From Bryobacterales bacterium (lineage in GTDB: Bacteria > Acidobacteriota > Terriglobia > Bryobacterales > Bryobacteraceae): a DNA stretch of 64,000 nucleotides. Of the stretch, positions 54,001-60,000 are shown in pieces (position 1 is the first letter of the stretch; each line of letters begins with the position of its first letter). Made by a program: the position numbers. The DNA lies in the NCBI GenBank assembly GCA_963703295.1, contig OY969810.1, positions 3,590,001-3,654,000 of the forward strand, written 5' to 3'.

Positions 54001-57000
54001 GGCGACCATACCGGCGGGACGGGCAAACCATCCGGTGAGGTCTCCCGTTTCGAATCCACAATTGACTACAGGGTTTAGGTGGGCGGCATCGCAGACGCTC
54101 GGAATATCGGCGAGAGCGGGGGTAGAGAAAATAACTGCTGCGACTACCGTATAGAAGCACTTTATTCGATATCCTTGAGTTCGTCAGAAACTTCAATTTC
54201 CAGCCCCAGCAGAGCTGCGCCGAAGGTCTTCCCCTGCGCATCGGTACGGAGGGAAACTGTACCTCCTCCGCCCAGCGCCCCATGCAGCAGAAAATTCAGC
54301 GCGCCCAGGTTGGGAAGTTCGAAGCGCTCGACTTCGCCCTTCACGAGGTTTCCGAAGTGACTCTTCACCCGCGCGGCCGTGACTTCGCGCAGAAGAACCG
54401 GGTAGTGACGCTCATCGAGAGCAATCACGCCAATGTTGCAGGTGTCGCCTTTGTCGCCTGACCGGGTGTGCGCGATACGGGAGAGGGGAGTTTTCATTGG
54501 GCTGCAGGCATTAGTCTACACGAAAGCGGGAAAGGGGAAAATTGGAATTCCGCGCCCGGGCTGTGGCTTACAGTAGATGATATGCCCGGCGCAGACCAGA
54601 TCGAAAGAGTCCGCCGCCTTTGCCTGGCGCTTCCCGGCACAATGGAAAAACTCTCCCACGGTGAACCGACGTTTTTCGTCAAGAAGAGGGTGTTCGCAAT
54701 GATGTCGAACAACCATCACAACGATGGCCACATCGCGGTTTGGATTCCCGCTCAACCCGGCGAACAGGAGGCGCTGATCGCAATGGCGCCCAAAATCTAT
54801 TACCGGCCGCCCTATGTTGGGGTCAAAGGGTGGGTGGGAATCGAGCTATCGCGAATCGGCGATGAAGAGTTGGGCGGACACCTCACGGAAGCCTGGAAGA
54901 TGATCAACACGCCACGGCGTAAGTAGCGCCGCGAGGATGCTACCATCCTGTAGATGCCCGCGACCAAAATCACCTGTTTTAGTAATGGACCGATCCGTAT
55001 AGAAGGCGACTTTGAAATCGTCGATCCCACCGGTTCAGTCTTCGGCTTGGCCGGCCGTACCACCATTGGACTCTGCCGCTGCGGACTTTCCGAGAATAAG
55101 CCCTTTTGCGATGGTAGCCACTCGCGGCAGGGATTCGTTCACGAAGTAATTGCGCGTGATTTGCCCGCGCCGAAGCCTAAAGTATAACCAAGTAAGTTAA
55201 CGAGGCAGGTTCGAACACCGCACGCTGTTACGCGATCGAAGCTACGGGATCGAAGTGCGAAGGTTGCTGAAAAAGACCTGAAATCAGTTAACCGCGGATA
55301 AACGCAGATCAACGCAGATTGAAAACCTGGGCTTATGGAGTGAACCCCAAAAGTGAGACACACTGAATAGACGCACTTTGCAGCGAATGGAGTGCGAACA
55401 TGGCCAAGAAGGCAAAGTGGCGTCGTCACACGTTGGAGTTCAAGCGGCAGGTGGTCGAACGAATGAAAACCTGCCAAAACATTCATGAACTGGCCCGCGA
55501 GCTGAAAATCGAGCGCAAGCTGCTCTACACCTGGAAGTACCAGTTCGAGGGTCGGCCGGAACCTCGGCACGCAAGTCTCGGAATTGCCGCAGAAGACCGC
55601 AAAGAACAAAAACACCGCGAGGAGATCGCCCGGCTGAAGGCGGCGCTGGCCGACAAAACCCTGGAGAACGATTTTTTTCGAAGTGCCTTGCTCAAGATCG
55701 AGGCGGATCGCCAGCAGACTACCGCAAGCGGCGAAACAGCATCTACGACACCATCCAATCGTGGGCGCAAGAGCAAGGCAAGCCAGACGAACCACGTACG
55801 CTGAGCGTGGAGCGGATGTGCCACCTGGCCGGTGTCAGCCGAGCCAGCTATTACCGTCACGGGGAACAAGCAGCGCCGGACGAAGCGGGAATGGCGGTAC
55901 GGGCGGCCATTCAGGAGGTGGCGCTCGCGCACCGGCGGCGCTATGGGTACCGGCGCGTCAGCGTGGATCTCCGGCGCCGCGGAATGGCGGTCAATCACAA
56001 ACGGGTGCTGCGGATCATGCGCGAAGATAATTTGCTGGCTATCCGCTATCGCAAGTATATTCTCACGACGAACTCGCAGCATGACCGCCCGGTGTATCTG
56101 AATCTGGCGGCGCGGATCAGCGTCACTGGAGTCAATCAGCTCTGGGTGGCGGATATCACGTACATCCGCCTGCGCAGCGAATTCGTTTTCCTGGCGGTCG
56201 TGATCGACCGGTTCTCGCGCAAGGCCGTCGGCTGGGCGCTGGACCGGAGCTTAAGCGCCCGGGTGGCGATCCGGGCGCTGCAACAGGCGATCGAACGGCG
56301 CATCCACCACCGGGAGTGGTGCATCACTCCGACCAGGGCACTCAGTACGCCAGCGCGGAGTACATCGCGGTGCTCGAAAGCAGGCAAATGACTCCGAGCA
56401 TGAGCCGTCCCGCCAACCCCTACGATAAGGCTTACGCTTCATACTGCACCTCCTGCGAACCGTGGAAGACAATCTCGGGAAAACGACGCCGCTTGGCGAG
56501 CCTGACGCCCTGGGCCTTGCACGGCGGATTGGGCCCAGGATCCTCATACAACCAGTCATTCCGATCGTTCACCGGATAGCCGCGAAGCAGGCCGCGATTC
56601 CGCCAGGTGATCACGCACTTGGGGCCGATCTCCAATCGCGCCGACATTTCTTCGAGTGTCAACAGGCCCTTCTGGCGTAGCCGATCATATCGCGGTTTGA
56701 GCTGGTATTCAGAGCGGAGACGCGCGATGATACGGCTGTGGAAGCGTTGCCCGCATCCGGACAGTGCGCCTCGGCGATTCAGGATTTCCACGATTTGCTT
56801 ATCGGTGTAATGCTCCGTCAGTCGATCAACCTCGGCGACAATCTCTGCCGGCGTTGTTCTGAGTTCCCAGGCTGTCAAGGGTCTCGGCAGCTCGATCGTC
56901 TTCGTCACTCCGCCGCTGAAGCGGACATGAACAGTGATCCCAGTCCCTCGAATGAGCGTCACGTCGGCGAGCAGTAAGCGCACCATGCGTTTCCGCTCTC

Positions 57001-60000
57001 GATCCGGAGTCTTTGGATCTTGCCAGAGCCGTGGAAAGTCACTGGACAGCGCGGCGATTCGAGCACGCTGCTGCTCATTCACTGCGGCGCGATCCTGCCG
57101 CCGTTGTTGCTCATACTGCTCCTGTGCCTCCGTTAACGCGCGAAGCTTTTCATTCCAGTCTGCCTCGAGCGAGTCAGCGACCAGACGGTTGGCAGGATCG
57201 ACGTGCAAGTACCGGCGCTGGGCTAAATCGGCTTCATAACGCGCTCGCTCCACCTGTTTCTTGCGGAGCTTATCCACCTCCTCGATTCTCGCCTGGAGTT
57301 CCTGTTGGACCGACAGAGTGACTTCGAGCGCGAGCGGAGCCACGCTCTCCACCAGAAGCTGGCCCACAGCACGATCGATCTGATCTCCGACCACTCGCTG
57401 ACAGATCGATATGGCGTGCTCGATGCCATCACGCTGGCAGAGGTACTCAGGCACGAGACGGTCCTGACGCGTGTGGTATCGGACCGTCATTCGGCTCCCG
57501 CAGACGCCACAGACTACCAAACCTTGCAACAAAGCAGGGCCTTCGCGTGGAGGACTCTTGCGACGATCTGCTCCAACGGCTTGTGCGTTTTCGCGAAGGT
57601 GCAGAAGGTTCTCTTCATATTGCTCCCAGGAGATGTAGCCGGGGTGAGCATTCTTGAGCAGCGTCCACTGCTCGCGCGGCAAGCGGGTATAGGAGACGCC
57701 TCCGTTCGGGTTGTTGCGAGTACGGCTTCGGCCGTATACGAATGCGCCTGCATAACGGGGATTGTGCAGGATGTGGAGGGCGCGGCTGTGCGGTAGTTCG
57801 GCCCACACCAGATCGCCTTTGTTCGGTCCCTTCTTTAACCGCCGCGGAAACAGAAGTTTTTTCTCACGGAAGGCTTTGACGACTGCGCAGGCCGATGCGG
57901 TACGCCGAAACGTCTCGAAAAAGAATCGAATGCTTCCCTGGACCTGCTGGTCGGGGTCCAGCACAGGCTCGTCGTTGACGTTGTAAACGAAGCCAACCGG
58001 TAAAGGACATTGCAACTCACCGCGACGGGCTTTGTTCAAGATTCCGCCTTGCAGGCGCGCCCGGAGCACATGCAGCTCAGCTTCGCTCATGGTCCCTTTG
58101 AGACCCAGCAGGAGACGATCGTTGAAGTGTGAGGGATCATATACGCCGTCCTCATCGAGAATGAGCGTGTCGGTAAGAGCGCAGATCTCTAGCAGCCGGT
58201 GCCAGTCCGTGGAGTTTCGCGCCAGCCTGGAGACCTCCAGACCAAGCACGATGCCGGCTTTACCCAGACTCACTTCTGTCACCAGTTTCTGAAAGCCCTC
58301 CCGATCGACAGCCGATGCGCCGGACTGTCCGAGATCGCTGTCGATGACGACAATGCGCTCCACCGGCCAGCCCAAGGCGACAGCGTTTTGGCGCAGCCCG
58401 TACTGCCGCTTGGTGCTTTCGGTATTCTCGAAAACTTGGCGAAGCGTTGATTGGCGGACGTAAAGATAGGCGTTACGTTTGAGGTGGCCAGCATTCACTT
58501 TTTGGTGAGCTACGCCTGTCATGAGATTGCCTCCTGTTGTAGAGAGAGAATCATGCTCGCCAGCAGAGTGGTGATCTGCGAGCGCATCTCGACGGGAATC
58601 GTTTCATCGGCGCTGGATTGAGGCCATGCGGTCTGTTCGACATGGCCGTTACATTCTGACCATGCCTGCATCCAGGCTGTCATTCCGCGCCGGAGAAAAA
58701 GCGCGAGGCCCAAGCGTTCGCCGCTGTGAGTGGGCCGGCCGATGGCGTCGCGACGTAGTTGTTCGTAGTGAACGGCCAGATCCAACTGGGATGCGGGTCT
58801 ATCGCCGGCCCCGTTCAGCGGAGTTTTTTTTGATGGCGAAGCAGGCTGCGCTCGATACTTCGCGGGTGAACCTTGATGCGGAAGCGCTTCTGTATCCGTT
58901 TCACCAGGTCCGGCAATCGCATGGAGGGTTCTTCCTGGCGCACCTCGCCAATGAATGTGAGGACCTCTTCGGTGAGCTTGTACGCCTGCTTGGGGCCGCG
59001 CTTGTGAGGCACCAGGCCGGCAAGACCGTCGTCCTCGAAGGCCGATCGCGCCTGATAGAACGACGGCCGCGAAAAACCGAAACTCGCGGCTGCATCCGTT
59101 ACAGATTGGCCTTCGGTCCGCACCCTCCGCAGCATCTCGTATTTGACCTGGACCAGATCGCGAGGATCGAAGAAATCGTCCTGGAGAAACAGCGGGTCGC
59201 GCACTGCTTTGGGACGCGGGTTCAGTGTTCCCTGTTGCTGGAGCGCGCGGATCTTTCGGTCCTGGTCGGCCATAGGCTCTTCTCAATGATTCGACTACGA
59301 TTGTAAAGATAATTATGCTCTTATCAGTCGCAGTGTCAAGGCTTTTTTGCGATCTGCTATCAATCTTTATTAGATAAAATTGACATGAATTAGCGTTTTT
59401 ATGCATCGCTACGCCGGACGACATCGGCATCATTCTCTTTACAATAGCGGCGTTATTGTCTTTACACTTAAAGCGCCCCAGGCTCATCGGGCCTTCTCCA
59501 CAAAGTCCGCCAACTTCAGCAAGTCCTCGTAGCGAAACAGGCACCGCCCTGCGGCCAGCACCACGAATGGATCCGCTGGCAGTACTGTTGTCCAGCACGC
59601 CGGAATAGAGCGCAGGACGCCGCGGTTGTCGTGGAAGTAAACTCGATCCTCGCCCCAGTTGTGACGGTAAGTGACCAGCTTGAAACTCTGGCCTCTCAGC
59701 GGATGATGGGGATGGGTGACTTCAAAAGTACCTTCGGCACGGTCGGCATGCGCTGTAGTTGACGGACTCGGCCAATGCTGCGTGTGAGAGCTTCATGAAA
59801 ACCTTGAAACAGGAGGAAATCTACTGCCACGCATATGGCGATTTCGATGAGCTTTGGCAGCATGTGGAAGAGTTCATCGGAGACTACTACAATCGTTTGC
59901 GGCTCCATTCGGCGCTGGGCTATCGCACGCCGGAGGAGTTTGAGCGCGAGGCCGCATCCACGCCTGGGGGAAACCACGAAGCAGCGGTAATGCAGTTGTT

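What a model noticed while it worked through the whole genome (the two positions that open the first line are those of the whole stretch)
56427..59775. Serine-recombinase element that hunts transposase genes, always inserting 4 codons before the catalytic Glu
Two related 3.35 and 3.48 kb elements (DUF5372 ORF, HTH ORF, 696-aa large serine recombinase), 11 copies, all sit antisense inside DDE transposase genes of three IS families (IS3, IS21, IS481), at the AA of the N/K codon four residues before the catalytic Glu. Reading: a hyperparasitic element whose attB is the one motif (P-x-x-N/K-x-x-x-E) shared by RNase-H-fold transposases, so it disarms other IS and rides them as non-autonomous cargo. 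New if true: one recombinase that targets an active-site codon across unrelated DNA sequences, a possible tool to knock out IS elements.
Evidence so far: 11 of 11 copies (8 near-identical, 3 of a second type); joined flanks read GNPYD-N-AACES (IS3), SPQA-K-GRIER (IS481), GWE/GNQ-K-GxVER (IS21) with a 2-bp core. Empty alleles lie in the same genome: IS481 g06699 near 7827890 and IS21 g00722. A 5045-bp IS481+element composite is duplicated at 100% (4050703, 5355614; call 115). A public soil run holds the empty IS3 allele skipping 3347 bp with 2 shared letters. Of 80 loci from other species, 62 had a readable right flank; by my reading about 55 end at this codon of a DDE transposase, about 6 do not; left flanks restore xxxE(S/R) in Acidobacteria, Polaromonas, Planctomycetes, Gemmatimonadota. 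DUF5372 lies beside a recombinase in at least 238 geno [...]
(Added by a program. Inside this text positions count along the whole contig: contig position 3,590,001 is position 1 of the stretch shown here. "Call 12" and the like, gene names such as g00115 and contig names such as C1 are that model's own, and its searches are not shown. The text may have been shortened before it was handed on; [...] marks where a part breaks off. The agent that wrote the report below was given it as the finding of a first reader that could run no searches.)

Follow-up and report, generated by a model that had tools for sequence, protein, structure and literature searches.

The report
Recombinase element targeting transposase active sites
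A 3.3-kb jumping element sits in the same active-site codon of the transposase genes of three unrelated insertion-sequence families, likely because its recombinase reads a loose DNA motif found there, and one of its own genes is predicted to be complete only when the element is cut out as a circle.

Summary
Confirmed, corrected and extended. All 11 of 11 copies (8 of 3,349 bp, 3 of 3,481 bp) lie antisense in DDE transposase genes, at the AA of the N/K codon four residues before the catalytic Glu. Empty alleles exist in this genome and in a soil run. The hosts are IS3, IS21 and ISNCY/IS1202-type, not IS481. In other genomes 52 of 59 readable flanks are this codon, 1 is unclear and 6 are not.

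- There is a fourth gene.
- DUF5372 gets its ribosome site and start codon from the far end only when the ends are joined; one metagenome contig holds such a junction.
- Distant, smaller relatives hit other mobile-gene motifs (IstB Walker A, IS3 Y-N, group II intron RT, IS5, IS66, DUF222).

Targeting by DNA readout is likely. A matrix trained on other genomes ranks the true sites at the top, and off-target sites keep the motif, but a matrix without one family does not single out that family's sites. 'Riding as cargo' is not shown, and no activity was tested. The NGR234 element is an older member. This scan found the family before on other DNA; ten literature searches found no description.

The parts
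56427..59775 (-). Whole element (type A), 3,349 bp, bounded by a 2-bp core; no terminal inverted repeats seen and no duplication beyond the core
   Evidence: empty allele
56427..56428 (+). Core AA at the LSR end (first two bases of the host N codon)
59774..59775 (+). Core AA at the DUF5372 end
56432..58522 (-). Large serine recombinase, 696 aa: Resolvase, Recombinase and zinc-ribbon domains, coiled coil, and about 150 aa of extra C-terminal helical/HTH_17-like domains
56429..56453 (-). Shine-Dalgarno-like GGAGG (56449-56453), ATG (56440-56442) and first codons of DUF5372; in frame with the DUF5372 body only when the ends are joined
59484..59774 (-). Start-less body of DUF5372 (Y4bD/Y4pK family); model has a small SH3/KOW-like barrel plus helices
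59312..59339 (-). Sigma-70-like promoter (11 of 12 consensus) upstream of the HTH-ORF3-LSR operon; a consensus match only
58815..59273 (-). HTH protein, 152 aa, similar to the N-terminal DNA-binding region of IS481/IS630 transposases; ends in an A8 run (58824-58831)
58519..58830 (-). ORF3, about 100 aa, no family; lies in the -1 frame of the HTH gene (candidate frameshift fusion) and its stop overlaps the LSR ATG
55335..56426 (+). Host IS3: left end, orfA (55400-55804) and 5' part of orfB up to NPYD; one-base frameshift near 56299 relative to the empty allele
59776..62196 (+). Host IS3: 3' part of orfB with the catalytic Glu (to 60043), tail interrupted by an IS110, right inverted repeat at 62169-62196

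Best explanation
This is a small element that sits in the active-site codon of other elements' transposase genes and likely moves by large-serine-recombinase excision to a circle and re-integration at a loose DNA motif that such genes share. SHOWN: position, 2-bp core, empty alleles, same codon in IS3, IS21 and ISNCY hosts across phyla, split DUF5372, one natural junction contig. INFERRED steps: (1) Integrated state: the internal promoter drives HTH, ORF3 (perhaps as a -1 frameshift fusion) and the LSR; HTH/ORF3 are the likely regulator or excision factor. (2) The LSR joins the two ends at the AA core, giving a circle and restoring the transposase gene. (3) In the circle the ribosome site and ATG at the LSR end join the DUF5372 body, so DUF5372 would be made mainly after excision and probably acts as a state switch or integration helper. 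(4) The LSR, possibly with its extra C-terminal DNA-binding domains, reads roughly CC at -9/-8, purine at -5, G at -3, the AA core, G at +2, GA-purine at +11 to +13 and T at +21. These are mostly first and second codon positions of P-x-x-N/K-G/A-x-x-E, fixed by the host's need for a working enzyme. The gain would be a site that is multi-copy, mobile and harmless to the cell.
For: 11 of 11 copies. Ends placed by element-internal rules give TT at 61 of 66 and 64 of 66 ends; 57 of 59 readable right flanks read N/K-x-x-x-E, of which 52 are DDE transposases by my reading. 7 of 7 NGR234 copies examined are at the same codon. A matrix trained only on other genomes leaves 0-4 of 934,166 AA sites at or above each of the 8 type-A targets, and its top three free sites are empty transposase alleles. 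Off-target sites (L030, L059, L070, and the tyrosine recombinase in L078) keep AA and GA at +11/+12. Wobble positions vary freely (GAA 23, GAG 22; all four Pro codons). Two unoccupied transposases lack the AA core. Circle frame is intact in 54 of 54 loci. Contig L082 has LSR, core, whole DUF5372 and HTH start in circle order.
Against: No activity data. The matrix test is partly circular: leaving one family out drops its sites to rank 152-642 (ISNCY) or 188-18,045 (IS3), and a minimal shared motif occurs 137 times, so simple shared bases do not explain 11 of 11. The type-A matrix ranks the two IS21 sites (type B) at 567 and 1,803. Six AA-core transposase sites remain empty. No circle joint was listed in 7 runs laid (contigs only, some joints not shown). 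L082 could be a tandem rather than a circle. In 12 of 54 loci an in-frame ATG/GTG exists in the host flank or inside the DUF5372 body, as in 1 of 8 own copies and about 30 of 120 database proteins, so the switch may leak. The 54 of 54 frame result follows partly from the rule used to place the ends. The loci are not independent (several per genome).
Confidence: 0.7

Rival explanations
1. An accessory factor does the targeting: DUF5372 (made from the circle) or the transposase-like HTH protein guides the LSR to IS DNA, and the LSR only picks the local core.
For: The shared motif alone is too weak. The HTH matches IS481/IS630 N-termini. A DUF5372-like ORF is kept even in the minimal elements.
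Against: No HTH was detected in the minimal relatives, which are still motif-specific. Off-target sites keep the DNA motif outside transposase genes. A pooled independent-position matrix is sufficient in principle.
Confidence: 0.17
2. A relaxed multi-target LSR plus purifying selection: it inserts at hundreds of motif sites and only insertions in IS survive.
For: 137 minimal-motif sites in G000; some insertions in ordinary DNA, including an ssb gene.
Against: An 8.8-Mb genome should tolerate many insertions in dispensable genes, yet 0 of 11 are there and the 8 type-A copies are nearly identical, hence recent. Sub-clades that hit DUF222 or tyrosine recombinase genes group together in the tree, which suggests evolved specificity.
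Confidence: 0.08
3. RNA-guided targeting, in the manner of IS110 bridge RNA.
For: A 210-bp intergenic region exists, and one enzyme reaches diverse sequences.
Against: No Rfam match; folding z-score -1.0; longest exact match between element and 7 targets is 8-11 nt against a random mean of 8.9 and maximum of 12. These are weak tests for 9-nt guide halves.
Confidence: 0.03
4. One ancient insertion spread passively with its host IS, or assembly artefacts.
For: The duplicated 5,045-bp composite and chimeric flanks.
Against: Near-identical copies sit in unrelated IS families; types A and B both occupy the same site of one IS3; exact empty alleles exist.
Confidence: 0.02

Closest known systems
Four-gene repeat of Sinorhizobium fredii NGR234 (pNGR234a 33989-37258; y4bA-D, recalled as NGRIS-4 within NGRRS-1, Perret 1997, PMC179701)
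   Same: Same four genes in the same order, LSR 53% identical, 3,322 bp, 7 of 7 examined copies at the same K codon of ISNCY and IS21 transposases, same split start. It belongs to this family.
   Different: The paper is not held (only its reference entry seen), so what it says about targeting is unknown. The names y4bA-D and NGRIS-4 are recalled.
Multi-targeting and gene-targeting LSRs of Durrant et al. 2022 (PMC10083194; section 6, passages, and a term search of 8 supplementary files)
   Same: LSR with a 2-bp core, several attB sites, and clades that target conserved genes.
   Different: No transposase-targeting clade is named; the supplements show only a non-significant GO row for transposase activity (6 vs 2, p 0.20). 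DUF4368, typical of their multi-targeting clade, was not found in this LSR. Their full LSR table may not be among the files held.
TnpX/Tn4451 and TndX/Tn5397 LSR transposons (recalled)
   Same: Mobile element moved by one LSR through a circle with a 2-bp core; circle-dependent expression.
   Different: As recalled, they carry resistance and transfer cargo, the circle junction forms a promoter rather than a reading frame, and they do not target transposase codons.
Helper-embedded PICIs (PMC10111431, passages)
   Same: An integrase clade with repeated tropism for genes of another mobile element, with sub-clades by site.
   Different: Tyrosine integrases with an identity core, targeting prophage late genes; satellites that depend on a helper phage.
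SSV-type archaeal integrases and mycobacteriophage BPs repressor (genes split by attP; recalled, lead from earlier scan notes; PMC8371274 seen only in a search listing)
   Same: A gene is whole only in the excised form.
   Different: There the integrase or repressor itself is cut; here a small partner gene loses its ribosome site and start codon.

Membership tests
Large serine recombinase integrative elements | Catalytic Resolvase domain plus Recombinase and zinc-ribbon/coiled-coil domains | tested here: met
   PF00239, PF07508, PF13408 over cut-off; model matches serine integrase structures, best E 9.7e-5
Large serine recombinase integrative elements | 2-bp crossover core, no target duplication, exact empty site | tested here: met
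Large serine recombinase integrative elements | Circular intermediate with attP carrying an imperfect inverted repeat | tested here: inconclusive
   One junction contig of a relative could be a tandem; imperfect repeat seen; no circle joint listed for this element
Large serine recombinase integrative elements | Recombination activity and a directionality factor | not testable with these tools
NGR234 y4bA-D family (DUF5372-HTH-ORF3-LSR) | Four genes in this order, ends at fixed distances, insertion at the N/K codon | tested here: met
   same tree clade, support 99 (quick tree)
DUF4368 multi-targeting LSR clade (TndX-like) | DUF4368 domain (present in 63% of that clade) | tested here: not met
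   No DUF4368 at E 0.01; clade placement against their tree not tested
Classical DDE insertion sequence | Own DDE transposase, terminal inverted repeats, target duplication | tested here: not met
   Only a transposase-like HTH fragment, below cut-off; no duplication beyond the core
IS110-type RNA-guided recombinase element | DEDD recombinase and a structured non-coding guide RNA | tested here: not met
   Enzyme is an LSR; no RNA signal (weak tests)
Host element as IS481 | Transposase over the IS481 cut-off | tested here: not met
   88 bits against 224; ISNCY_2 286.5 against 250

The most novel reading that the evidence does not exclude
A whole lineage of large serine recombinases has specialised as parasites of other mobile elements. 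Its clades have re-aimed from one conserved enzyme motif to another (DDE N/K-x3-E, IS3 Y-N, IS5 catalytic Glu, IS66, IstB Walker A, group II intron RT, tyrosine recombinase Lys, DUF222), and the circle-assembled DUF5372 protein is an integration or target-selection cofactor, a role not known for LSR partners.
Probability: 0.3. Interest if true: 0.9.

Novelty: new variant of a known kind. Interest (0 to 1): 0.72.

Why it matters
It shows how one recombinase can use a site that unrelated hosts cannot easily mutate away: the fixed codon positions of an active site. It adds a hidden control on IS activity; in this genome 11 such sites are occupied and 6 with the AA core are free. It explains many 'broken' transposases in rhizobia and soil bacteria (447 plasmid records hold a related LSR). 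It also offers a natural series of LSRs with matched, readable targets for learning how LSR specificity evolves, and possibly a way to silence IS elements in production strains.

Tried and rejected
- RNA guide: no Rfam hit, no stable fold, no excess match to targets.
- Frameshift stimulator after the A8 run: none (z +1.1). The fusion rests on an A-run of 7 or more in 43 of 56 distinct HTH ends and a -1 frame in 47 of 56.
- DUF5372 function by fold: no Foldseek hit at E 0.001; best Z 4.9 to KOW/SH3 domains, too weak to name a function. Atlas returned only DUF5372 clusters and nothing for ORF3.
- Internal duplication of the recombinase domain in the LSR tail: no BLAST similarity.
- Exact own attP in metagenome contigs: 0 matches.
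- Circle joints in runs: none listed; this shows nothing about absence.
- Perret 1997 and Mageeney 2020 are not held. PMC4339197, PMC5737581, PMC5001619, PMC10970691, PMC5994717 and PMC13626063 (passages only) gave nothing on this family.
- Three Bradyrhizobium rows were mis-anchored and are not counted; one search gives the reading for L088.
- 'IS481' label and 'cargo riding' were rejected or left unproven as described.
- The careful tree did not finish; the quick tree is used and has long branches among the distant clades.
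Full report
Observation. 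The window is G000:3590001-3654000. The stretch 56427-59775 has 8 near-identical copies, and a second type (LSR 60.5% identical, 3,481 bp) has 3. Every copy starts and ends with AA. Removing it and keeping one AA restores a transposase frame in 11 of 11 copies: five IS3 (NPYD|N), four SPQA|K and two IS21. Empty alleles lie in the same genome, and a contig of soil run X2 skips 3,347 bases with two shared letters. NCBIfam confirms IS3 and IS21 but places the SPQA|K host in ISNCY, not IS481. Its TGT..ACA ends and 16-bp duplications fit the IS1202 family (PMC10132070, passages). In this genome type A hits IS3 and ISNCY, and type B hits IS21 and IS3; both occupy the same site of one IS3. A 91%-identical relative of type A sits in IS21 (L004).

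Anatomy. On the minus strand there is a start-less DUF5372 body, a strong promoter-like site, an HTH protein resembling IS481/IS630 N-termini, an unannotated ORF3, and the 696-aa LSR. The LSR model matches serine integrases and has extra helical domains at the C-terminus. ORF3 lies in the -1 frame of the HTH gene in 47 of 56 distinct ends, with an A-run of 7 or more in 43 of 56. No stimulatory hairpin was found, so the fusion is only a candidate.

Split gene. Joining the ends puts a GGAGG and an ATG, 11 bases from the core at the LSR end, in frame with DUF5372 in both types and in 54 of 54 loci with both cores. The frame follows partly from how I placed the ends. The independent part is that TT falls at the rule position at 61 of 66 and 64 of 66 ends, and that the signal is kept whether the LSR stop lies before or after it. 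A degenerate scan found one metagenome contig, L082, with LSR, core, whole DUF5372 and HTH start in circle order; a tandem cannot be excluded. Against a tight switch: 12 of 54 loci, 1 of 8 own copies and about 30 of 120 database proteins have another in-frame start.

Relatives. Of 80 loci kept from 127, 59 had a readable right flank and 57 read N/K-x-x-x-E; 4 of the 59 needed a shift of 1-6 bases to reach a TT. By my reading 52 are DDE transposases, 1 is unclear (L051) and 6 are not (L030, L059, L070, L074, L076, L078). I gave 59 of 85 distinct flanks to Pfam: 33 hit rve, rve_3 or Mu-transposase, 2 tyrosine recombinase, 2 DUF222, 1 SSB, 1 a probably spurious GidA, and 20 nothing. Several loci come from one genome, so counts overstate independence. 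Related LSRs occur in 447 plasmid records, mostly rhizobial. The NGR234 element has the same four genes, and 7 of 7 examined copies are at the same codon. DUF5372 was found in 12 of 301 genomes of this phylum.

Wider family. In five plasmid records, LSRs of 33-42% identity lie in elements with a DUF5372-like ORF and no detected HTH, about 2.6-2.7 kb where several copies fix the ends. They insert at other motifs: IS3 Y-N (6 of 6 copies in S. medicae), IstB Walker A, IstB F-x-L-V/I, group II intron RT, the IS5 catalytic Glu and the IS66 transposase (host labels by my reading of translations, motif names recalled, several from a single copy). In a quick tree the DUF222-targeting trio and the tyrosine-recombinase pair form supported sub-clades inside the DDE-targeting clade.

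Mechanism of targeting. Conserved attB bases are mostly first and second codon positions. A position matrix trained on other genomes leaves at most 4 of 934,166 AA sites at or above each type-A target, and its three best free sites are empty transposase alleles. Off-target sites outside transposase genes keep AA and GA at +11/+12. Both points favour DNA readout by the protein. The limit: with one family left out, its sites rank 152-18,045, and a minimal motif occurs 137 times. The enzyme would therefore need a composite preference tuned to several families, or a helper. RNA guidance found no support. I give DNA readout 0.7.

Cargo claim. The two 5,045-bp composites are identical and each has its own 16-bp duplication. 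Either the interrupted IS moved with outside help, or the element entered two copies independently. The one empty copy is frameshifted in the assembly, so this is open. Copy 3359997 has the left flank of one ISNCY and the right flank of another, as do L002, L014, L039 and L069 across families. This suggests recombination between copies or mis-assembly.

Known and new. It works like TnpX/TndX-type LSR transposons (recalled) and is a member of the NGR234 y4bA-D family, whose 1997 paper I could not read. Ten searches found no paper naming DUF5372 or y4bD or describing this targeting. Durrant 2022 (section 6, passages, supplement term search) does not name it. HE-PICIs are the closest concept. The library lacks most subscription journals. 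Earlier notes of this scan report the same family, the split gene and IstB or IS4 variants on other genomes. I had found the split gene and the sister clades before reading them; they are not independent support, and one is marked as partly fallen. Verdict: real, a new variant of a known kind, interest 0.72.

Noticed in passing
window 60213-62094; G000 3769140-3771010 and 7682108-7683773: An IS110 element sits in the 3' tail of the same host IS3, and a second copy sits in the tail of the IS3 that holds a type-B element; two of three copies are in IS3 tails, possibly a second IS-targeting parasite.
   Followed up: partly
G000 758035 and 2978434: Two unoccupied transposases have Ser or Arg instead of N/K at the target codon (no AA core); possible escape variants.
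   Followed up: partly
G000 3359997; L002, L014, L039, L069, L127: Elements with flanks from two different hosts, or two left halves (L127), pointing to rearrangement between copies or mis-assembly.
   Followed up: partly
L132 and L135 (Bradyrhizobium plasmid), L129 (Microvirga plasmid), L137 (Streptomyces plasmid): Two different LSR elements lie within a few kb of each other; in L132 one is in istA and the other in the IstB Walker A, probably of the same IS21.
   Followed up: partly
window about 55261-55336 and 62196-62253: A short repeat of 55-78 bp flanking the host IS3 occurs at about nine other places in the genome (REP- or MITE-like); may be the IS3 target.
   Followed up: no
window 59418-59445 (+): A weak promoter-like site (9 of 12) points antisense to DUF5372 and out towards the 3' half of the host transposase.
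   Followed up: no
P0051 (ENA contig, 1,342 bp): A database DUF5372 protein whose N-terminus looks like the circle form; its DNA could not be fetched.
   Followed up: partly
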